DNA from: Candidatus Tagabacteria bacterium
Lineage (GTDB): Bacteria > Patescibacteriota > Minisyncoccia > GCA-002779875
Direction: 5' to 3'
NCBI GenBank assembly: GCA_963820595.1
Contig: CAWGAO010000001.1
Coordinates: 1-59,611, forward strand
DNA: 59,611 nt
Shown here: positions 10,436 through 46,712 of the stretch, piece after piece
Numbering within the stretch: the first letter of the stretch is position 1
How the letters are laid out: the number at the start of each line of letters is the position of its first letter
The notes under the pieces: model-generated
The model's database searches: none
Told to the model about the DNA's origin: nothing
The model's input: the letters and a program-made list of their open reading frames with translations, nothing else
Made by a program: the position numbers and the translations under genes

Positions 10436-10546
10436 ACCCCGTTAGAAGTCGTAACGTCAAAAATTTTAAGCTTGGGATTAAAATACAAGAAAGTTACTAA
10501 ATAACAAAACATATGGCAAAATTTATACCGAAACTTCTAACGGGGT
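10436..10546. repeat. ACCCCGTTAGAA...TTCTAACGGGGT element
   Basis: Perfect 14-bp inverted repeat starting directly after the pilB stop codon. Confidence 0.85.
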
Positions 10547-20471: not shown

Positions 20472-20606
20472 ATGCTTTCTGGAACCCAGATGAAAAAAAG
20501 GAAGAGAAATAGGACGCACGGCTTTTTAAGGCGCCAACGGACAAAAAAAGGCAGTTTGGTTATTTTAAGGAGGAGGAGGAAAGGTCGGAAAAGGCTTAGC
20601 GTTTAA
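20472..20606 (+). CDS. rpmH: 50S ribosomal protein L34 (44 aa, absent from the ORF track)
   Basis: Translated by hand: MLSGTQMKKRKRNRTHGFLRRQRTKKGSLVILRRRRKGRKRLSV; canonical position divergent from dnaA. Confidence 0.93.
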   Translation: MLSGTQMKKRKRNRTHGFLRRQRTKKGSLVILRRRRKGRKRLSV

Positions 20607-20608
20607 AG

Positions 20609-20772
20609 GAATTTGCCCGCGATTTGCCGTATAGCGACAAATCGCGGTTGCAAAACCTTTACCCCGCCCTCTAAGCGGTTCGCACTTTTTTCTTTTGTGA
20701 TTATTGGTTTGATGTTTTGCTTCATATTTTCTCTTTAAATTTATGCATAGATGGGCGGGGTGCTCAAATTTT
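20609..20772 (+). mobile_element. non-autonomous copy: hairpin module + ACCCCGCCCTCT element (20661-20761) + GCTCAAATTTT
   Basis: Same ends as the GIY-YIG cassette; interior about 90% identical to 28441-28540. Confidence 0.65.
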
Positions 20773-20813
20773 CAGCAAAATTTTATTCACTTCGTTCTAA
20801 AGTTTTGGAAATT

Positions 20814-21155
20814 ATGGCACTTCCTAAAAAGCAGCGTCTTGAGAAAAAGTTAATTAGGGAGATATTACAGAAAGGCAGGACCGTTCACAATAACAATATT
20901 TCTCTAAAATATCTTATAAAATCCGACAGACAAAAAGCTTTTGCCTTTATAGTGTCCGCAAAAACTGTTAAAAAAGCTGTAAATAGAAATCTTCTGAAAA
21001 GGAGGGGACGGGCTATTGTTTTTAAACTTCTGCCTCGAATCGAAAAAGGGTTGCTGGCTCTTATTTTTTTTAAGAAAGGGAGTAAAGAGTTGTCGTTTTG
21101 CAGCTTGGAAGCAGAAATTACGCAAACTTTTCAGAAAACAGGCCTTTTAATTTAA
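20814..21155 (+). CDS. rnpA: ribonuclease P protein component
   Basis: MALPKKQRL...KKAVNRNLLKRRGR; synteny rpmH-rnpA-yidC. Confidence 0.92.
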   Translation: MALPKKQRLEKKLIREILQKGRTVHNNNISLKYLIKSDRQKAFAFIVSAKTVKKAVNRNLLKRRGRAIVFKLLPRIEKGLLALIFFKKGSKELSFCSLEAEITQTFQKTGLLI

Positions 21156-21164
21156 ATTCAAATT

Positions 21165-21902
21165 ATGATTGGGAATTTGTTTCACCTTATTTTTTATCAG
21201 CCGCTATACAACGCGCTCGTTTTTCTTGTCGGCGTAATTCCTTTCCACGACGTCGGAATTGCCGTTATCGCTTTAACTCTTATAGTTCGGGCCATTCTTT
21301 TCCCGTTGAGCCATCGCTCCATTATTACTCAACGGAAAATGAGGGAAATAGAGCCGGAAGTTAAAAAAATCAAAGAGCAATACAAAAAAGATTCTCAAGA
21401 GCAAACGAAAAAAATAATGGCTCTTTATAAAGAACATGGCGTTAGCCCCTTCTCGGGTTTTTTTATGCTGATAATTCAGCTCCCGATTTTAATCGCCTTA
21501 TATAAGCTGTTTTCAAGCGGTATAAAGTTTAATCTTGGTGATTTGTATTCGTTTATGAGTATGCCGGCTGTTATAAAGGCGCAATTTCTCGGTCTTATAG
21601 ATATTTCCAAAAGTAATTATATTTTAGCCATTCTCGCCGGTCTCACTCAATTTTTTCAAATGCAACTGGCGATGCCTAAAATAAAGAAGCAGGAAGCCGG
21701 AGGCGGTTCTTTCCAAGACAATCTTAGCCGCAGTATGAGCGTTCAAGCCAAATACATCATGCCCGTTTTCATATCTTTCATCGCTCTTAAATTTTCTTCC
21801 GGCATCGCTTTGTATTGGACAGCAATGAACGTTTTTGCTATAGTGCACGAAGCCATTGTGGCTTACCGGGCCAAAAAGATTAAAGAAAATAAGGAGCGTT
21901 AG
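21165..21902 (+). CDS. yidC: membrane protein insertase YidC/Oxa1
   Basis: IVRAILFPL, IKEQYKKD..EQ...MALYKEHGVSP, QLPIL, ALYW. Confidence 0.95.
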   Translation: MIGNLFHLIFYQPLYNALVFLVGVIPFHDVGIAVIALTLIVRAILFPLSHRSIITQRKMREIEPEVKKIKEQYKKDSQEQTKKIMALYKEHGVSPFSGFFMLIIQLPILIALYKLFSSGIKFNLGDLYSFMSMPAVIKAQFLGLIDISKSNYILAILAGLTQFFQMQLAMPKIKKQEAGGGSFQDNLSRSMSVQAKYIMPVFISFIALKFSSGIALYWTAMNVFAIVHEAIVAYRAKKIKENKER

Positions 21903-21991
21903 CGACTATATTTTTCTTAACCCGCCCAAGTTTTTGCTTCGCAAAAATTTAGGCGGGTGATGATTTTTACAGTCGTTTCACTCCTTAAAAA
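21902..21991 (+). repeat. minimal family member: ACCCGCCC hairpin with shared flanks
   Basis: GCGACTATATTTTTCTTA-ACCCGCCCAAGTTTTTGCTTCGCAAAAATTTAGGCGGGT-GATGATTTTTACAGTCGTTTCACTCCTTAA. Confidence 0.75.
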
Positions 21992-21997
21992 TCTATC

Positions 21998-22462
21998 ATG
22001 AAACCGCAATTAGAAACCATTAAAACAATTATTGAAACGCTATTAGCGAGATTAGGGGTTAGAGGAGAGGTTGAGTATATGGAAACGGGCGAAGGAACCC
22101 GTTTCCTTATTAAAACTCACGAAGGAGCTCTTTTAATCGGCGAAAACGGGCAAAATTTGTTGGCGTTGAGTCATATAGTAAAAAAAATAGTCGATCAGAC
22201 TCTTAACGAGCCAAAGGAAACGAAGCCTATTTTTTCATTGGATGTCAATGATTATCAGGCGAAAAGAATTGAAGATTTGAAAAATTTGGCACGTTTAAAT
22301 GCTCAACGGGTGCGATATTTTAAAAAAGAAATTATAATGAGGCCTATGACGTCGTTTGAGCGGCGCATTATTCACGCCGTGCTTACTGAATGTCCCGATA
22401 TAACGACGGAAAGCACGGGTGAAGAGCCGAATCGCAAAGTAGTGATAAAGCCTTATCCGTAA
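21998..22462 (+). CDS. jag: Jag/EloR/KhpB RNA-binding protein (KH + R3H)
   Basis: LLIGENGQNL, LDVNDY, MTSFERRIIH, STGEEPNRKVVI. Confidence 0.92.
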   Translation: MKPQLETIKTIIETLLARLGVRGEVEYMETGEGTRFLIKTHEGALLIGENGQNLLALSHIVKKIVDQTLNEPKETKPIFSLDVNDYQAKRIEDLKNLARLNAQRVRYFKKEIIMRPMTSFERRIIHAVLTECPDITTESTGEEPNRKVVIKPYP

Positions 22463-22464
22463 AA

Positions 22465-22502
22465 AACAAAAATCGTTCCTCTTTTGAGGAACGATTTTTG
22501 TT
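22465..22502. terminator. bidirectional intrinsic terminator
   Basis: 17-bp stem AACAAAAATCGTTCCTC/GAGGAACGATTTTTGTT between convergent operons. Confidence 0.8.
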
Positions 22503-22513
22503 AAAAAATCTGA

Positions 22514-23749
22514 CTACGAACTCACTTGAAGGCTCCATAAGGTGCCGTCTTTTTTGTTTTGGAAGAAAAGATAATCTTCGTTTTTGCTAAGAAAAAGATT
22601 TACAAGGTCAAACCCATTATTAGTTTCATTCGAGAGAATTTCGGTCGACCCATTAATAGTATCAATCCTCCAGATTCTGTCGGAGAAAGAAACCAGTCCC
22701 TGGTACCAGTCATCCGGATACGTCCCCGTAGGAATAGAGGAGGGCGCTGCGCAGTAGAGAGTTCCTTTTTTTAATTTGCTCCAGGCGCATTTTTCCGGTA
22801 AAGTAGTCAAGCTAAAAAGGGTTGTTTTTTTTTCTTTGACGTCGAAGAGGCTTGTTTTCAGCCCCTCGAGACTTTCTTCGCTATAAAGGATGCGTTCGCC
22901 GTCCGGCGACCAAAGCGCGGTCAATCCTTGGACATTGCCTAAAACTCTATCAAAAGAGCCGGTTGCCGGATCTAGTTTGTATAAAAAGCCATTAATAGCC
23001 GCTGAAGGTTTTGAAAGAAGAGCGATAATATTTGCCGAAGGCCATGAGGCGAGCCAATCTCCAAACGGCGTCGAAAGAATCTGTTTTTGTTTTTTATCTT
23101 CAAATGTTGCGGTTATGCCGACGTTCGTGCCTTCAAAGGGAGTCAGGTAAAATATAGTGTTTCCTTTTGGAGAAGAGGCGAGAGTCTTGATTGTTGACAA
23201 TAAGAAAATGCCGCGAGTTATCATGGTAGCTGTTGTAGTAGCTATGGAAATTACCGAGAAATTCCGGATTATGTCTTTAACGCCTGTTTCGTTTTCTTCA
23301 ATGTAACGAATTACGGCTTGATTTCCGCTTGGCGACCAATAAACTTCGAAAATATTGGGGATAGTGGTGTTCGAAATTCGGACAGGAGTCCCGTTTGGCA
23401 ATTTTATATCGTAAATATGGCCGGTTGCTTTTTCAAAATAACGCACCGTTTCGATTTTAGTTTTATCCGGATTTATTTTTTCAACAAAAGTCGCGCCGAT
23501 GACCGGCTTTTGAGTGAGTTGAGTCAAAGATTTTAACGGCCCCGGTGAAATGATTGTTGGGGTTGTTGCGGCGCCGGGAGTTGTGGGCTGGCCCGAGGTC
23601 TTGCCGCCAGCCGCGGGAAAAGTGCCTCCGCCGGGAAAAGTCGGTTGGGTGGCAGGAGCAGGCTTGGCAAAATAAACCCAGAAAACAATAAGACCGATAA
23701 TAACAAGGCCTACGATTGCGCCTATAAGAACTAAATAACGTTTATCCAT
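22514..23749 (-). CDS. membrane-anchored TolB-like beta-propeller protein
   Basis: N-terminal TM helix, Pro/Thr linker, repeated WSPSG/WSPDG motifs. Confidence 0.7.
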   Translation of the reverse strand: MDKRYLVLIGAIVGLVIIGLIVFWVYFAKPAPATQPTFPGGGTFPAAGGKTSGQPTTPGAATTPTIISPGPLKSLTQLTQKPVIGATFVEKINPDKTKIETVRYFEKATGHIYDIKLPNGTPVRISNTTIPNIFEVYWSPSGNQAVIRYIEENETGVKDIIRNFSVISIATTTATMITRGIFLLSTIKTLASSPKGNTIFYLTPFEGTNVGITATFEDKKQKQILSTPFGDWLASWPSANIIALLSKPSAAINGFLYKLDPATGSFDRVLGNVQGLTALWSPDGERILYSEESLEGLKTSLFDVKEKKTTLFSLTTLPEKCAWSKLKKGTLYCAAPSSIPTGTYPDDWYQGLVSFSDRIWRIDTINGSTEILSNETNNGFDLVNLFLSKNEDYLFFQNKKDGTLWSLQVSS

Positions 23750-24170
23750 AATTTTTTATCTGACTTATTGATTGCGTAGGTATAGGAGGAACTGTTAATT
23801 TTCCTTTGGCCAAGTCGGGGTTGATTGTGTATAAAATGAGCCAGGCAGCTACCGCCAAAAGCAGGCCGAGGAGAGCTTGGGTGATGCGGTCTTTCGCATT
23901 TTCGACTGCGGATGAATTGCCGTAAGCAGTCATATACTGAATGCCCCCAATGACAATCATTGCCACTGCGAGGATGCCGGCTATGCTGATGCCAAAAGCA
24001 AAAACCGCTTCCAGATAAGTGGAAAGGCCAATGCCTTCTCCGGGAACAAGCTGAGAGCCGTAGTAAGGTATAGGTTCCAAAAGTTTGTATTGCTCCGCGG
24101 CAAAAACGCTGATAGCTCCTAAAAACCCGATAATTATTAATAATTTTATTACAAAAGAAATTTTTTTCAT
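23742..24170 (-). CDS. CPR pilin (VirB2/TrbC-like)
   Basis: Signal peptide, then hydrophobic pair LAVAMIVIGGIQYM...AKDRITQALLGLLL. Confidence 0.8.
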   Translation of the reverse strand: MKKISFVIKLLIIIGFLGAISVFAAEQYKLLEPIPYYGSQLVPGEGIGLSTYLEAVFAFGISIAGILAVAMIVIGGIQYMTAYGNSSAVENAKDRITQALLGLLLAVAAWLILYTINPDLAKGKLTVPPIPTQSISQIKNYG

Positions 24171-24172
24171 TT

Positions 24173-25168
24173 TTATTCGAAATTAAAATTAACCTGCAAG
24201 GACCTTGAGGCTGCTTCCAAAATATTTGCCTGATTATTGAGGGTTAATTTTACGTTACTGACGCCTTTCGTGCCGGAGGAAACCGCTAATTTAAGCACGT
24301 TAGGTTTCTGGGGAGTATCGATTGTTTTGTCGTTCATCTGCCAAACGTATGAAAGTCCCGGTAAGCCTCTTTCGGAAAAAAAGAAGGGTTCGGCTCGAAG
24401 GATCAGCTCCTCTTTGGAGAGGGTAAAATTGCTGCCCAGTTCGTTCTGGTACCTGGGTCCTTCAAGGGGGTTTTCTTCGTAGAAAAGGATCTCAGGCTGG
24501 ATTATATAGATGATGACTTGGCTTTCCGCCGTTGCGCTTTTATCCAAAGTCGAAACTTTAACGTCAATCACTTCTTGCCCGGATTCGTCGGAATAAAAAG
24601 TTAAGGTTTTCTTTCCCTGACCCGAGGCATCGGGAAGATTCTTGTCGTTCCGCTGCCATTCGTAAACGAGTTTTGAGTCGGACACCCCAAGACCTTGGGG
24701 TATGGCAGTGACTTTTATCGATGCCTGAGGCGAGACTAGAGCTTTGCCCCGGTATTGGGGTGGAGTGTAAGTCGGGGTTTCCCAAAGGAGGTCTACCGCG
24801 CCCGCCCTGAACGTAAAAGATTTGCTTAGCGTATGTTCCTCCGCCGTGATGATTGAAACGTCGAGGTCGGTTTCGGTGCCGAGGCCGCCGGTAGTGAAAG
24901 AAAAGGTGTTTCCGGTCGCCTGGATTTTACCGTTAACGAGCCAGGCAACGGTGGCACGGTTGATGTCGAATGTGTAGCTTATCGCCTGGGCCGAAACCTG
25001 CGTGTTGGGGCCGGGGTGTTCGGGAGCGAACTGAACGATGAAATCTTCTCCGGACGTAGCCGGTACGGTTGGCATTGTGACATTATATTGCGCGTTAACG
25101 TGGTTTAACGTGAAAAAGACTGCGATTATCGCGAAAATAACAAATGTTTTAAGGATGTCTTTTTTCAT
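24173..25168 (-). CDS. secreted Ig-fold repeat protein
   Basis: Signal peptide; repeated beta-sandwich-like YEWQ/YVWQ segments. Confidence 0.7.
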   Translation of the reverse strand: MKKDILKTFVIFAIIAVFFTLNHVNAQYNVTMPTVPATSGEDFIVQFAPEHPGPNTQVSAQAISYTFDINRATVAWLVNGKIQATGNTFSFTTGGLGTETDLDVSIITAEEHTLSKSFTFRAGAVDLLWETPTYTPPQYRGKALVSPQASIKVTAIPQGLGVSDSKLVYEWQRNDKNLPDASGQGKKTLTFYSDESGQEVIDVKVSTLDKSATAESQVIIYIIQPEILFYEENPLEGPRYQNELGSNFTLSKEELILRAEPFFFSERGLPGLSYVWQMNDKTIDTPQKPNVLKLAVSSGTKGVSNVKLTLNNQANILEAASRSLQVNFNFE

Positions 25169-25641
25169 ATTGCCTTTTTTGCTATTCCTTCGATCTCCTC
25201 TCCTAATTTTCCGGCCACTTTTCCGAGCATTTTTTGGTCTTGTATCAATAAATATATTATAGCACCAAAATAACCGCCGAAAAAACTGCCCGCTGCGCCG
25301 TAATAAAGAGCTTTAATCCATTTTTTGGGCGCCCCTTTTGCGATTTTGCCGGTTAGCCAAATAAAAAATGCAAATCCTACAAAGATATTGATAATAAGAT
25401 TGATTATCCATCCCGCGAACGGAATAAAATCTAGCGCCCATGACACCACTGCCACGAGTCCGGTAAACGCCAGAAGCAATATCGCTTCTCCTTTATTGAT
25501 AAACTGTTCTTCGGCTGGTTTTGCCGCTCCTTTTTCAGTTTCTTCCTCTCTTTCTTCTTCGGCCGCCATTTCATCGGCCATCCGCGCTTGTTGCAACTCC
25601 ATCAGACGTTGTTCTTCGATTGTAATTTCGCCATTTGGCAT
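25165..25641 (-). CDS. small integral membrane protein
   Basis: Acidic N-terminus and about three hydrophobic helices; translationally coupled in the operon. Confidence 0.7.
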   Translation of the reverse strand: MPNGEITIEEQRLMELQQARMADEMAAEEEREEETEKGAAKPAEEQFINKGEAILLLAFTGLVAVVSWALDFIPFAGWIINLIINIFVGFAFFIWLTGKIAKGAPKKWIKALYYGAAGSFFGGYFGAIIYLLIQDQKMLGKVAGKLGEEIEGIAKKAI

Positions 25642-25645
25642 TTAT

Positions 25646-27523
25646 TTATACATTGATTATTTTCGGCGACATTTGCTGCGCTTGTTTGTTTTCGGTTGCC
25701 TCCGAGGCTTGCGCGAATTCCTGTTTTGCCTTTTTAATCGCCAAGAGCTGGGCCGGGTCGGAAGTTATAATCTGGTCTTCGGTATAAGAGCTTATAATTT
25801 TAATGGCAACGTGTTTTAAGCCGGCGAAAAATATTCCTTCGCCGACGTCCGATTCCAAAAGAAGGAATTTTTCTTCTTCCGTAAGATTGAAAGTTTGTTT
25901 TACCAGGTCTATCGTAGCCGGTGATTGTTTCAGGAGAACCTGAATGGAAGAGTTTGTGATAATGGGTACGCCATAAGGCGATTTCATAAAATCGCCTACG
26001 TCCTGCGTAATGGTCGCTACGCCCAAGAAATATTTTCTGGCGCGCTTGCAAAGGCCGAAAAGGAACGAGGCGGCGTCTTCCGACTTCATCATTGTCCAAG
26101 CCTCGTCGATAACCAGCAGTCTTTTCTTAATTTGGCGTCGAATCGCGTTCCAAATGTAGTGAGTGATAATGTACATTGCCGCCGGCCGGAGTTCGTCTTC
26201 CATATCGCGTATGGAGAAAACAATGAACTTTTGATTGATATCGACATTCGTAGGCTGATTGATAAATCCTGCCCATGTTCCTTTTGTGTATTTTCGCAAT
26301 TTTTGCGCCAAGGTTTCTCCGCCCTCCATATTCAAAAGAACCAGTTCCAGATCCGACAAAATCGGAGGGGTGGCCTTTAAAAAATCAGTTTCTTCCGTGA
26401 TGTCGCGGGAAGCGTAAGTTTCGGTGATTGCCCTGTCTAAAACAGAATCTTCTTCAGGAGACAATCCGCCAAGTAAAATCCTGAATAAGCCTACTAAGTT
26501 AATTATATTTGAACGCAAGATATCGCCCGGAGCTTCGTCTTCGCGAGGAATGGGCAGGTCAAAGGGGTTAATATGGTGCCGGGAAGTAAGAGAGATGTTA
26601 AAGTAGCGGCCGTCGACGGCCTGGGCCAAATATTCGTATTCCCGCTCGGGATCGATGACAATAATGTCCGTGTCGAACATCAATGAGCGCAGAATTTCCA
26701 GTTTTGTGGTGTAACTTTTGCCGGCGCCGGCTTTGGCAAAAATCACCGAGTTGTAATTCTCGAGAGAATAGCGGTCAAAAAGCACCAAACTGTTATTGTG
26801 GCGATTTATGCCGTAGAGAATGCCTCTGTTGGATGTCAGGTCAAACGATACGAACGGGAAAACACTTGAAAGGGGAGATGAATTAAAACGGCTGTGGATG
26901 CTCAACTTGTCGGTTCCCAGAGGAAATACTGTATTTATGCCTTCGTTTTGCTGGAAAAGCGCGGGCTTAACGTAAATAAGCCGTGATTCGAGCATGGAGC
27001 GGATTTCGGTTTCAACTTTATCAAGTTCTTCCAGCGTATTGCCATAAAGCGTGATATAAATTCCGAGACTGAAGAGTCGTTCCGAGGCTTGCTGGAGTTT
27101 GTCCCGCAGTGTTTCCAGGTCTTGGTAGGCGATATCAAGCGCCGGATCCCTTACCAGGCCTTTTTCTTCGCGGATGTGGATTTGCGATTGGACTTCGGCG
27201 ACTTTTTTCTGGAGTTGGCGCATAACGCCTACGGTTTCAATCGGATGGACAAATATCGAAATATCAAAAACCTTATCCAAATTAATAATAGGCGAAAACC
27301 AATTAGCGGCCAAAAACCTGGGATAAGACATGATAAAAAACGTGCGTGCGACTTTATCGCCCAATCGGATATAATTGGCGTTTATCTCAAGCGCGGATGG
27401 AGCAATGACGTCTTTGAGCTCCATTATGCCTGCCGCGTATATTTCTTCCGGAAAAGTCGGGAGAATTTCGCCGCTTACTTCTTTTTTCGCACCTCTTGTT
27501 TTGAAAATATCCGCTATGTCCAT
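25646..27523 (-). CDS. VirB4-like ATPase (C-terminal/ATPase part)
   Basis: Walker A AKAGAGKS, VIDPEREY, INPFD, Walker B LLVIDEAW, RARKY, ITQD. Confidence 0.9.
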   Translation of the reverse strand: MDIADIFKTRGAKKEVSGEILPTFPEEIYAAGIMELKDVIAPSALEINANYIRLGDKVARTFFIMSYPRFLAANWFSPIINLDKVFDISIFVHPIETVGVMRQLQKKVAEVQSQIHIREEKGLVRDPALDIAYQDLETLRDKLQQASERLFSLGIYITLYGNTLEELDKVETEIRSMLESRLIYVKPALFQQNEGINTVFPLGTDKLSIHSRFNSSPLSSVFPFVSFDLTSNRGILYGINRHNNSLVLFDRYSLENYNSVIFAKAGAGKSYTTKLEILRSLMFDTDIIVIDPEREYEYLAQAVDGRYFNISLTSRHHINPFDLPIPREDEAPGDILRSNIINLVGLFRILLGGLSPEEDSVLDRAITETYASRDITEETDFLKATPPILSDLELVLLNMEGGETLAQKLRKYTKGTWAGFINQPTNVDINQKFIVFSIRDMEDELRPAAMYIITHYIWNAIRRQIKKRLLVIDEAWTMMKSEDAASFLFGLCKRARKYFLGVATITQDVGDFMKSPYGVPIITNSSIQVLLKQSPATIDLVKQTFNLTEEEKFLLLESDVGEGIFFAGLKHVAIKIISSYTEDQIITSDPAQLLAIKKAKQEFAQASEATENKQAQQMSPKIINV

Positions 27524-27525
27524 AA

Positions 27526-27728
27526 CAAAAATTAAGGAGTTAAACGACTATAATTTTTGAGCACCCCCTCTTTTACACCCAAAAATGGAATTTTTATTTT
27601 CCAGATTTTGTTTCGGTATTCATTGTGTGATTTATTCATAATTTTCATTTTTATTGGGGGTTAAAAGAGGGGGTAAAGGTTTTGCAGCCGCGATTTGTCT
27701 CTTCGTTCCAAATCGCGGGCAAATTCAC
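27526..27728 (-). repeat. family element (ACCCCCTCTTTTA arms, 27563-27674) with hairpin module and 42-bp leader
   Basis: 13-bp perfect arms; hairpin module at 27675-27728; 27526-27567 is identical to 28404-28445. Confidence 0.85.
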
Positions 27729-27729
27729 T

Positions 27730-28401
27730 TTATTGCTGGGATGAGGCCATGCCTCCTTTTGCGAGTTCGCCGGGGTTATATAATGTATAAAAAAGTTCGA
27801 TTAATTCTTCCGTATTTAATAAAACAGCCCTGACGCCGGTTCGAGCCAGACCTTGGATAACCGATTCAACCCGCTGCTGAAGCTGGCTTTTATATTCTTC
27901 GAATTTATCCTCCCCTAATCCTTTTTTATTGGTTTTTTTGCCGCCAAATAGCGTGCTGAAGACGCCTTTTGCTTCGCCTAAAGGTCCGCCTTTGCTTCCG
28001 CCGAAGGTGGGAGGGCTGTAGGGGATGACAACGTAAAAAGTTTTTGAAACTATTTCCGTCAAGCTTACAAAATTTTTGACGAATTCGATATATTCCCGGA
28101 TTTGGATTTTTAAAAGGTCATTAACCTGTTTTTTCTCGGCATCTCTTAAGCTGTCCAGATAGGGTTCTATGTTCAGGCGCCTTGATTCGATAAAAAATTG
28201 AATTGAGAAATCGAGCGAATTTAAAAAATCCTGGTATTGGTCGATAATGGCTTCCTGTTCGTCGGCCGATTTTAACGCAAAGTTAAGAGAAGACGTCATT
28301 AATGCCATGCGCATACCGCCGTCTTCCAAAATAATGACGCCATCACGGATTTCTTTTATGGATACGAATTGCTGTGAAGCTTTTGCTTTTTGTACGGCCA
28401 T
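27730..28401 (-). CDS. VirB4 N-terminal-like protein of the CPR T4SS-like locus
   Basis: SLNFALKSADEQEAII..Y..FLNSLDFSIQ...LNTEELIELFY, resembling the N-terminal region of Gram-positive-type VirB4. Confidence 0.7.
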   Translation of the reverse strand: MAVQKAKASQQFVSIKEIRDGVIILEDGGMRMALMTSSLNFALKSADEQEAIIDQYQDFLNSLDFSIQFFIESRRLNIEPYLDSLRDAEKKQVNDLLKIQIREYIEFVKNFVSLTEIVSKTFYVVIPYSPPTFGGSKGGPLGEAKGVFSTLFGGKKTNKKGLGEDKFEEYKSQLQQRVESVIQGLARTGVRAVLLNTEELIELFYTLYNPGELAKGGMASSQQ

Positions 28402-28403
28402 GC

Positions 28404-28540
28404 CAAAAATTAAGGAGTTAAACGACTATAATTTTTGAGCACCCCGCCCTCTAAGCGGTTCGTGCTCTTTTCTTTTGTAATTGTTGGTTTGATGTTTTGC
28501 TTCATATTTTTTCTTTAAATTCGTGCGTAGAGGGCGGGGT
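28404..28540 (-). mobile_element. non-autonomous ACCCCGCCCTCT element (28441-28540) plus 42-bp leader
   Basis: Same terminal arms as 7000-7246; about 90% identical to 20661-20761. Confidence 0.65.
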
Positions 28541-28544
28541 AAAC

Positions 28545-28979
28545 CTAGCGGTTTACTTTTTCTTTAATATCTAAACTCCAGGCCAAATCGCCAAGTTTAT
28601 TTTTAGTCAGTTTGGGCATATACATGGGCGTTTTTTCTCCTGCCTTGCCGGCAGGAAGACTTTCTTTTGTTTTTTGTATTATTTCCGGAGTTGCCTCGGC
28701 TTCTCTTTTTTTCCAAAGGTAAAGCTTGTTCGAAGTAAGATAGCGAAAAGCGTTTTCGACGACCTTTATAAAAGGCTGATTATTAATTCTATAAAAAGCG
28801 AGAGCTAAAGAAAAAAGGGCGATGGGAATGCCGAAGAAAACGGTTAAATACAGAGGCAGGAGGGCGTAGCAGACAAAAACAATGCCTCCGCCTCCGATTA
28901 GATAAATAAACTGTTTAAAAGTAAGAGGCCCAAAAATTTTATCTTCGATCTCGGTAAATTGAGGGACTTGAAACCTCAT
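28545..28979 (-). CDS. PrgI-family (VirB3-like) membrane protein
   Basis: MRFQVPQFTEIEDKIFGPLTFKQFIY, two TM helices. Confidence 0.88.
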   Translation of the reverse strand: MRFQVPQFTEIEDKIFGPLTFKQFIYLIGGGGIVFVCYALLPLYLTVFFGIPIALFSLALAFYRINNQPFIKVVENAFRYLTSNKLYLWKKREAEATPEIIQKTKESLPAGKAGEKTPMYMPKLTKNKLGDLAWSLDIKEKVNR

Positions 28980-46599: not shown

Positions 46600-46712
46600 A
46601 CCCCGTTAGAAATTTTCAACATGCTTCTGTATTTTTGCTAGCCAGAGCCGTAAGGCGGATTCGCAGTAGCGCAATTAAGATTATCGGCGTTCAGCTGAAT
46701 TTCTAACGGGGT
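46600..46712. repeat. ACCCCGTTAGAAATT...AATTTCTAACGGGGT element
   Basis: Perfect 15-bp inverted repeat; same subfamily as 10436-10546 with unrelated interior. Confidence 0.85.

What the first reader, a model, noticed from the sequence alone, without database searches (positions are those of the whole stretch)
20609..28540. Same cargo, opposite orientation relative to its flank: signature of inversion at the repeat arms
Seen: 20661-20761 and 28441-28540 are about 90% identical and co-oriented on the plus strand. The conserved flank GCTCAAA(A)TT lies to the right of the first copy on the plus strand, but to the left of the second copy on the minus strand. Relative to the flank, the interior is therefore flipped between perfect arms. 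In the GIY-YIG copy the GCTTAG arm also faces downstream, as in the 28441 copy. Inference: the arms are recombination or cleavage sites and the cargo is invertible, or inserts in either orientation into a preferred target. This could switch expression of the downstream rnpA-yidC operon or the T4SS genes.
Basis: partly seen in the sequence, partly recalled or inferred. Interest (0 to 1): 0.75.

Follow-up and report, generated by a model that had tools for sequence, protein, structure and literature searches.

The report
Flipped copy of nuclease-linked hairpin repeat
The two 100-base repeats are copies of a small hairpin-ended mobile element of ultra-small (CPR) bacteria whose full-length form carries a tiny GIY-YIG nuclease gene; one copy really is flipped relative to its neighbours, but this looks like a rare, fixed accident, not a genetic on/off switch.

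Summary
20661-20761 (B) and 28441-28540 (D) are 88% identical and co-oriented on the plus strand. Both are bounded by ACCCCGCCCTCTA/TAGAGGGCGGGGT arms, and the interior is inverted relative to the flank that starts GCTCAAA.

B and D belong to a family of about 17 elements of roughly 100 nt in this 570-kb CPR genome. One member (7000-7246) holds a 74-aa single-domain GIY-YIG nuclease gene whose start and stop codons lie in the arms. Each element is the middle hairpin of a three-hairpin spacer running from stop codon to start codon; "GCTCAAA" is the head of the third hairpin, itself a repeat.

The same arms occur in 20 of 401 genomes of the class, including inside 16S and 23S rRNA genes. Relatives have an empty rpmH-rnpA junction, so the spacer is an insertion.

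Orientation is normally fixed. Long copies are 18 "co-directional" to 2 "flipped" (B is one); short copies (70 nt or less) are about 50:50. Three related copies keep one orientation across 24, 20 and 3 independent assemblies. No promoter lies in the cargo, and no recombinase lies nearby.

Best reading: an Ssn/SRM-like nuclease-repeat element with a rare passive flip or reverse insertion.

The parts
20604..20660 (+). H1: hairpin module that starts at the rpmH stop codon (GGAATTTGCCCGCGATTT-loop-AAATCGCGGTTGCAAAACCTTT)
   Evidence: Folds as a closed hairpin. At least 13 close copies in the genome, each directly after a stop codon.
20661..20761 (-). Element B (H2). Arms at 20661-20673 and 20748-20761, with an extra T at 20752. 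74-nt AT-rich interior. The GCTTAG ('stop') end faces upstream, so B is flipped relative to the usual arrangement.
20762..20819 (+). H3: leader hairpin module starting GCTCAAATTTT and enclosing the rnpA start codon (20814-20816)
   Evidence: Fold. The same module type sits beside other arm families at C7:101624 and C8:9516. RnpA is confirmed by Pfam.
28441..28540 (-). Element D (H2). Perfect 13-bp arms at 28441-28453 and 28528-28540. Co-directional with the minus-strand genes: degenerate start end ACG faces upstream, GCTTAG end faces downstream.
28400..28440 (-). H3 module of D (GCTCAAAAATTATAGTCGTTTAACTCCTTAATTTTTGGCATG), ending at the start codon of the 223-aa gene (28401-28399)
   Evidence: 92% identical to the copy at 27515-27567 (repeat family D2).
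28541..28559 (-). Short hairpin AAACCgctaGGTTT that contains the stop codon of the PrgI-family gene. D has no H1 module.
7000..7246 (+). Full-length family member A. Same arms, enclosing a 74-aa GIY-YIG ORF (7012-7236). The ATG lies in the left arm and the TAG in the right arm. Flanked by H1 (6948-6999) and H3 (7247-7296).
27563..27674 (-). Element C. Same three-hairpin layout but different arms (ACCCCCTCTTTTA/TAAAAGAGGGGGT). H1 at 27675-27732 and H3 at 27524-27562.

Best explanation
B and D are two ORF-less copies of a hairpin-ended mobile element. Its boundaries are CCCCGCCCTCTAWGC ... GCWTAGAGGGCGGGG. Its autonomous form carries a 74-aa single-domain GIY-YIG nuclease gene lying exactly between the arms.

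In this CPR genome the element is the middle hairpin (H2) of a three-hairpin spacer, H1-H2-H3, that fills the gap from one gene's stop codon to the next gene's start codon. Copies of about 100 nt or more almost always have the ATG-side arm facing upstream. B is one of two exceptions in this genome.

The flip is most likely a rare, fixed, passive event. I slightly favour an in-place inversion of the hairpin loop through the inverted arms, by intramolecular recombination or template switching, as in the hairpin-associated small inversions of plastid DNA. A fresh insertion in the reverse orientation cannot be separated from this with the data at hand. Either way it is not a regulated switch.

Shown: anatomy, family size, link to the nuclease, insertion status, orientation bias, and fixed orientation of related copies.
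Inferred: that the nuclease acts on the arms (by analogy with Ssn nucleases and their flanking hairpin repeats), and the route of the flip.
For: - Family: about 17 copies with the same arms, plus one with the GIY-YIG ORF. A second GIY-YIG gene (C7:165608-165853) is bounded by the arms of a second mini-element family.
- Three abutting hairpins, RNA-fold z about -4 for both loci.
- Insertion: the orthologous rpmH-rnpA junction has a 1-nt spacer in L005, L006 and L011. In L007-L010 it has a 47-nt insert without H2.
- Patchy spread: identical arms in 20 of 401 genomes of the class, in 19 genera. They bound orthologous GIY-YIG genes whose DNA has diverged (L002, L061, L063, L119, L187).
- Identical arms also sit inside 16S and 23S rRNA genes, so H2 moves on its own.
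- Orientation census against H1->H3 or gene direction:
  - copies of 95 nt or more: 18 co-directional, 2 flipped (binomial p=0.0004);
  - copies of 70 nt or less: 5 to 5 or 6 (Fisher p=0.01-0.03 against the long copies).
- B is the only flipped member of its subfamily. B, D and C8:59581 share 89-93% interior identity.
- Signs of arm-to-arm copying: the flipped copy C8:9516 carries the same variant (ATCCC/GGGAT) in both arms, whereas unflipped copies have it in one arm. L048 has both ends converted to AAGC. B has an indel inside an arm.
- Fixed orientation across assemblies: 24 contigs for the P0118 element, 20 for P0101, and 3 for a 101-nt ORF-less copy.
- Precedents: Ssn nucleases with flanking hairpin repeats (PMC11893778); hairpin-associated inversions (PMC2903610).
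Against: - No reads could be mapped, so low-level ongoing inversion at B or D is not excluded.
- No close relative carries B or D at the same locus, so an in-place flip is not directly shown.
- The census classed flanks by eye and its copies are not phylogenetically independent.
- Interiors of the ORF-less copies show no clear homology to the nuclease gene. Their derivation from the full-length form rests on the shared 16-nt ends only.
- Nuclease activity on the arms is untested.
- Membership of the Ssn clade (cd10448) could not be tested.
- In rRNA genes orientation is 3:2, and relatives have an H2-less spacer at this junction. Both fit reverse insertion as well as an in-place flip.
Confidence: 0.72

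Rival explanations
1. Reverse insertion. H2 elements insert on their own between pre-existing H1 and H3 modules or into hairpin tips. Because their ends are near-perfect inverted repeats they can land either way, so B simply landed backwards and was never inverted in place.
For: - H2 alone occurs inside rRNA genes in both orientations (3 same, 2 opposite).
- Relatives L007-L010 have an H1-like plus H3-tail spacer without H2 at the very same rpmH-rnpA junction.
- Modules are shuffled between loci: the H3 type of B also sits next to other arm families.
Against: - The 18:2 bias of long copies in gene spacers needs added selection or an orientation-specific mechanism.
- The dependence of orientation on loop length, the arm homogenisation in C8:9516 and L048, and the indel inside B's arm (not at its outer edge) fit arm-mediated events better.
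Confidence: 0.3
2. Programmed invertible switch. The cargo flips reversibly in the population and so changes expression of rnpA-yidC or the T4SS-like genes.
For: - Inverted arms bracket a short segment directly upstream of genes.
- In co-directional copies of this subfamily a small ORF reads through the arm and H3 and stops 6-8 nt before the next start codon. In B it is antisense, so orientation could in principle matter for translation.
Against: - No promoter-like site lies in either cargo on either strand.
- Interiors of family members are unrelated.
- No PF00589 recombinase was found in the genome, and the only PF00239 hit is on contig C6 (the genome is 56% complete).
- Orientation is 18:2, not mixed.
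- Related copies are fixed in 24, 20 and 3 assemblies.
- From my own knowledge, a 74-bp interior is shorter than that of described recombinase-driven invertons.
Confidence: 0.05
3. Host-selected structural spacer. The three hairpins are conserved operon punctuation (RNA processing, termination or translational-coupling signals), not mobile DNA, and the orientation of the loop is irrelevant filler.
For: - The hairpins run exactly from stop codon to start codon and fold far better than shuffles.
- The arms are perfectly conserved while the loops drift.
- Element length clusters at 96-104 nt in many genomes.
Against: - The junction is empty in relatives.
- The arms have a patchy distribution across 19 genera.
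- The same element is inserted in rRNA genes.
- It is physically linked to a nuclease gene, with decaying nuclease copies (L063, L100).
These points do not exclude secondary domestication.
Confidence: 0.08

Closest known systems
Ssn single-domain GIY-YIG ssDNA nucleases with NTS/SRM hairpin repeats (Chenal et al. 2025, PMC11893778)
   Same: - A very small single-domain GIY-YIG protein.
- Its gene is bracketed on both sides by inverted-repeat DNA.
- Many ORF-less copies of the repeat lie in intergenic DNA of a small, host-dependent bacterium.
- The repeat has a built-in asymmetry that gives it an orientation.
   Different: - Here the two 13-16-nt arms pair with each other across the whole gene, with the ATG and TAG inside the arms. 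In Ssn loci each repeat is a local 20-50-nt hairpin.
- ORF-less copies keep a loop of about 70 nt.
- Copies also sit in rRNA genes and in exact stop-to-start spacers.
- The protein is 74 aa, against 94 aa for SsnA.
- Membership of the cd10448 clade and ssDNA cleavage are untested.
- The paper's main text does not mention Patescibacteria or candidate phyla.
REP/REPIN elements with RAYT transposases, and BIME/NIME mosaics (my own knowledge; also discussed in PMC11893778)
   Same: - Palindromic repeats dispersed between genes.
- One enzyme gene is flanked by the same repeats.
- Modules are combined as mosaics.
   Different: The enzyme is a GIY-YIG nuclease, not a Y1 HUH transposase. No orientation link to the replication strand was found here.
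Insertion sequences and intervening sequences in CPR rRNA genes (PMC11270868)
   Same: That survey reports GIY-YIG ORFs in non-intron rRNA insertions and many short (<200 bp) ORF-less insertions at the top or base of stem-loops. I found this very element in 16S and 23S genes of relatives.
   Different: The survey does not link those insertions to intergenic repeats with identical ends, or to their orientation.
Hairpin-associated small inversions of plastid non-coding DNA (e.g. PMC2903610)
   Same: The inverted piece is exactly the loop between inverted-repeat stems. The events recur and are passive.
   Different: Those are single-locus hairpins in organelle DNA. Here the hairpin is a multi-copy mobile element, and a resident nuclease might provoke the event.
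Recombinase-driven invertible promoters (fimS, hin, Bacteroides and Clostridioides invertons; my own knowledge)
   Same: Short inverted repeats bracket a segment upstream of genes.
   Different: There is no promoter in the segment, no dedicated recombinase nearby, and orientation is fixed in the related populations examined.

Membership tests
Ssn nuclease / SRM repeat system | Small single-domain GIY-YIG protein | tested here: met
   74 aa. Pfam GIY-YIG at E=3e-11; the only other hits are two related, overlapping models (T5orf172, MUG113). At least 335 clusters of 71-116-aa homologues; every source-given organism name is a Patescibacteria/CPR lineage.
Ssn nuclease / SRM repeat system | Belongs to the cd10448 clade | not testable with these tools
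   No CDD model or SsnA sequence is available. NCBIfam gives only a sub-threshold hit to TIGR01453. The nearest PDB sequences are UPF0213 proteins at E=0.015.
Ssn nuclease / SRM repeat system | Gene flanked on both sides by the repeat, with many ORF-less repeat copies in the genome | tested here: met
   Arms at 7000-7012 and 7234-7246. About 17 ORF-less copies. Two other paralogous GIY-YIG genes in this genome have their own inverted-repeat arms.
Ssn nuclease / SRM repeat system | Each repeat is a local 20-50-nt hairpin | tested here: not met
   The arms are 13-16 nt and pair with each other across 70-220 nt. Local hairpins H1 and H3 do flank the unit, but their link to the nuclease is unknown.
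Ssn nuclease / SRM repeat system | Strand-specific cleavage of ssDNA next to the repeat | not testable with these tools
   Needs biochemistry.
Programmed invertible switch (inverton) | Promoter or coding junction inside the invertible segment | tested here: not met
   No sigma-70-like site within 20661-20761 or 28441-28540. Interiors are unrelated among copies.
Programmed invertible switch (inverton) | Site-specific recombinase | tested here: inconclusive
   No PF00589 hit. One PF00239 hit on contig C6, not near either copy. The genome is only 56% complete.
Programmed invertible switch (inverton) | Both orientations present within one population | not testable with these tools
Related copies elsewhere are fixed.
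MITE / TIR transposon | Terminal inverted repeats and many dispersed copies | tested here: met
MITE / TIR transposon | Target-site duplication | tested here: not met
   The bases outside the arms (e.g. ...CCTTT|A...T|GCTCA...GAAACT|G...A|GGAAGG in 16S) are not direct repeats.
MITE / TIR transposon | Empty sites in relatives | tested here: met
   The rpmH-rnpA spacer is 1 nt in L005, L006 and L011.
Hairpin-loop small inversion | The inverted segment equals the loop between inverted-repeat stems; events recur and are more frequent with short loops | tested here: met
   Flipped copies are B, C8:9516, L049, L050, L055, L056 and L062, against unflipped relatives. 2 of 20 long copies and 5-6 of 10-11 short copies are flipped.

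The most novel reading that the evidence does not exclude
The arms are the recognition hairpin of the resident 74-aa GIY-YIG nuclease, and nicking of the extruded hairpin drives recurrent, recombinase-free flip-flop of the loop.

The one asymmetric arm base (T or A at position 14) flips with the loop, and so does the small ORF that reads through the arm into the leader hairpin. A flip would therefore change which DNA strand the nuclease can cut. It would also change whether the downstream essential gene (here rnpA) stays translationally coupled. That would make it a new kind of nuclease-driven inversion switch.
Probability: 0.06. Interest if true: 0.8.

Novelty: new variant of a known kind. 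Interest (0 to 1): 0.4.

Why it matters
For the finding itself, there is no sign of a phase-variable control of RNase P/YidC or of the secretion genes.

The element behind it is more interesting.
- It ties together three things so far described separately: Ssn-type mini-nucleases with flanking hairpin repeats, the unexplained short and GIY-YIG-bearing insertions in CPR rRNA genes, and the highly structured stop-to-start spacers of these tiny genomes.
- It suggests that a minimal nuclease gene sitting in a hairpin loop is a widespread selfish module in Patescibacteria.
- Practically, such elements cause misplaced start codons. An ORF from 20751, inside the arm, runs in frame into rnpA.
- They can also mimic invertons in automated screens.

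Tried and rejected
- **Replication-strand rule (as for IS200/IS605).** The three window copies fit a fixed orientation relative to GC skew, but genome-wide the rule gives 9 matches, 6 failures and 2 ambiguous, so I rejected it.
- **ORF-less copies as internal-deletion derivatives of the nuclease gene.** An anchored comparison of interiors with seven GIY-YIG gene ends shows no 5' homology and only marginal 3' similarity (p=0.04). This is not demonstrable.
- **'Relay' ORF reading through arm and H3 as a general feature.** It is present in the B/D subfamily and a few other copies, but not generally.
- **Known RNA families.** No Rfam hit at gathering threshold in the window. The only permissive hit is spurious (mir-23, E=0.11). 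No tRNA in the window.
- **Phage DNA.** No match.
- **Exact-protein look-ups to find sister assemblies.** L34 and the 223-aa gene returned nothing.
- **Extending the metagenome relatives to the D locus.** Their records are not held. They also carry no H2 elements near yidC.
- **Genome-contig scan with the 15-mer arm.** It mostly returned chance single hits in GC-rich genomes. Only loci with paired hits were usable.
- **Short-form copy L103.** It has no second assembly.
Full report
**1. Observation**

The two copies are real. 20661-20759 and 28441-28539 form a 99-nt direct repeat at 88% identity. A 24-mer from their interior occurs nowhere else in the window, with 0 matches expected in shuffles.

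Both copies are bounded by ACCCCGCCCTCTA / TAGAGGGCGGGGT. The arms are perfect in the second copy (D). In the first copy (B) the right arm has one extra T at 20752.

GCTCAAATTT follows B on the plus strand. Its reverse complement precedes D. Read from that flank, the two interiors are therefore mutual reverse complements.

A third unit with the same arms (7000-7246) is filled exactly by a 74-aa ORF. Its ATG lies in the left arm and its TAG in the right arm. Pfam calls the protein a GIY-YIG domain (E=3e-11).

**2. Anatomy of the loci**

The window is contig C1 of a 570-kb, 56%-complete genome. Named homologues of its GIY-YIG protein are all from Patescibacteria/CPR lineages.
- B lies between rpmH and rnpA, next to dnaA and to the GC-skew switch.
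- D lies between a PrgI-family gene and a 223-aa gene of a T4SS-like operon on the minus strand.

Folding either spacer gives three abutting hairpins with no free bases between them, z about -4:
- **H1** starts at the upstream stop codon.
- **H2** is the arms plus the interior.
- **H3** starts GCTCAA and encloses the downstream start codon.

H1 and H3 are themselves repeat families. They are combined in different ways with several H2 families.

**3. The family**

The genome holds about 17 units of roughly 100 nt with these arms, plus the nuclease-bearing one.

The two ends differ at one base: TCTATGC at the start-codon end and GCTTAGA at the stop-codon end. This gives every copy a polarity even though most interiors share no sequence.

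A second GIY-YIG gene (C7:165608-165853) is bounded by the arms of a second mini-element family. A third is bounded by its own 25-bp inverted repeat.

At least five other arm families of 100-150 nt exist, and all begin ACCC(C).

**4. Evidence that it is mobile**

- **Empty site.** In metagenome relatives (YidC 73-78% identical) the rpmH stop and rnpA start are 1 nt apart in three contigs. In four others they are separated by a 47-nt H1-like plus H3-tail insert that lacks H2.
- **Patchy spread.** The exact 15-mer arm occurs in 20 of 401 genomes of the class, in 19 genera, against 3 hits in 3 genomes for the reversed control pattern. Paired arms also occur in genomes labelled Saccharibacteria.
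- **Size classes.** Units come as 41-68 nt, about 100 nt, and about 245 nt. The largest carry orthologous GIY-YIG genes whose DNA has diverged while the 16-nt ends stay identical. Two of these genes carry stops or frameshifts.
- **Insertion in rRNA genes.** The same unit, without H1 or H3, is inserted in 16S and 23S rRNA genes of five relatives, confirmed with Rfam. It probably also sits in an RNase P RNA gene; that is my reading and is not confirmed. This sets the element boundary at CCCCGCCC...GGGCGGGG.
- **Fit with the literature.** A published survey found non-intron GIY-YIG insertions and short ORF-less insertions at stem-loops of CPR rRNA genes (PMC11270868).

**5. Orientation**

I classed each copy lying between co-directional genes by whether its ATG-side arm faces the upstream gene or H1 ("same") or the downstream gene ("opposite").

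| Class of copy | Same | Opposite |
|---|---|---|
| This genome | 7 | 2 (B and C8:9516) |
| All copies of 95 nt or more, this and other genomes | 18 | 2 |
| Copies of 70 nt or less | 5 | 5-6 |
| Inside rRNA genes | 3 | 2 |

- The 18:2 split has binomial p=0.0004.
- Short copies differ from long ones at Fisher p=0.01-0.03.
- Other arm families in this genome add nine more "same" copies and no "opposite" copy.
- Within B's own subfamily (B, D and C8:59581; 89-93% interior identity) B is the only flipped member. C8:59581 has an H1 and a GCTCAAATTT-headed H3 on the same sides as B but the opposite interior orientation.
- Polarity does not follow GC skew.

The census has limits. I classed flanks by eye, and the copies are not phylogenetically independent.

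**6. Is it flipping now?**

As a proxy I looked at related copies that occur in many independent assemblies.
- A full-length copy between rnc and rpsP has one orientation in 24 contigs, of which ten were inspected, with at least three haplotypes.
- A full-length copy between nusG and rplK has one orientation in 20 contigs.
- A 101-nt ORF-less copy has one orientation in three assemblies with two haplotypes.

Other points also argue against a switch. Neither cargo contains a promoter-like site. The genome shows no tyrosine recombinase, and its single serine recombinase is on another contig.

**7. How the flip arose**

Two routes remain.

*(a) In-place inversion of the loop through the inverted arms*, as known for hairpin-associated small inversions (PMC2903610). 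In favour:
- The share of flipped copies rises as the loop shortens.
- The flipped copy C8:9516 carries the same arm variant on both sides, whereas unflipped copies carry it on one side only.
- One short copy (L048) has had its asymmetric base converted, giving a perfect palindrome.
- B's indel lies inside an arm and not at its outer edge.

*(b) Insertion in reverse.* In favour:
- Orientation in rRNA genes is mixed.
- Relatives have an H2-less spacer at this same junction.

I put (a) slightly ahead. On either route the current state is a fixed, rare variant.

**8. Comparison with what is known**

The closest described system is the Ssn family: single-domain GIY-YIG ssDNA nucleases whose genes are flanked by hairpin repeats that also occur in many ORF-less copies (PMC11893778).

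This element differs from that system in several ways:
- The two arms pair with each other across the gene.
- The start and stop codons lie in the arms.
- ORF-less copies keep a loop of about 70 nt.
- The element also invades rRNA genes and exact stop-to-start junctions.

Membership of the Ssn clade and ssDNA cleavage could not be tested. I therefore call it a new variant of a known kind. It works like an Ssn/REP-RAYT-type partnership of nuclease and repeat, but family membership is unproven.

**9. Verdict**

The switch interpretation is not supported. The underlying element is a worthwhile but partly anticipated object.

Earlier notes of this scan on this and other genomes reached similar readings. 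I treated them as leads and re-derived the points above from my own calls.

Noticed in passing
window 20751-20816: The extra T at 20752 in B's right arm creates an ATG at 20751 that is in frame with rnpA (native start 20814, as aligned with relatives). This gives an open 21-codon extension through the H3 hairpin, and ORF callers would misplace the rnpA start there.
   Followed up: partly
window 28402-28505 (minus strand); genome C8:59616-59715 and C8:60118-60230: A small ORF (MKQNIKP.ITKEKS.NRLEGGV...) starts inside the interior, reads through the stop-side arm and H3, and ends 6-8 nt before the next gene's ATG in three copies. In B the same ORF is antisense. Other family members do not share this pattern.
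   Followed up: partly
whole genome (e.g. window 27563-27674, 10436-10546, 46600-46712): At least six families of 100-150-nt hairpin-ended elements, all beginning ACCC(C) and ending (G)GGGT, amounting to roughly 55 or more copies in 570 kb. One family (ACCCCGTTAGAAGTT, about 25 copies) often abuts a TTGACA motif.
   Followed up: partly
many genomes: Units with the CCCCGCCCTCTA arms cluster at a total length of 96-104 nt in unrelated genomes although their interiors share no detectable sequence. This looks like a length constraint without a sequence constraint.
   Followed up: no
L119, L121, L122, L187 (other CPR genomes): A compact spacer form: stop codon-GCGAAA-[element]-GCTCAnnnnnTTCGC-ATG. 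The outer GCGAA and TTCGC are complementary and enclose the element.
   Followed up: no
L053, L065 (16S); L058, L066, L083 (23S); L064 (probably RNase P RNA): The same element is inserted into structured-RNA genes of relatives. L083 lies in the first 1190 positions of the 23S model; I take the site to be the helix-25 region known for enterobacterial intervening sequences, which was not mapped here. The RNase P RNA assignment rests on my reading of GGAAAGTCCG... and did not reach Rfam's threshold on the fragment.
   Followed up: partly
L003 and L061 (G009, G392): A second element type with related arms (CCCAGCCGTCTAWGC...) is nested inside the H3 or H1 hairpin next to the main element, that is, hairpin elements inserted into the loops of other hairpin modules.
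   Followed up: no
whole genome: No Phage_integrase (PF00589) match at all, so no XerC/D-type recombinase was detected, though the genome is only 56% complete.
   Followed up: no
L063 (G150), L100: GIY-YIG genes with an internal stop or frameshifts lie inside perfectly intact arms. The nuclease decays while the ends are kept.
   Followed up: no
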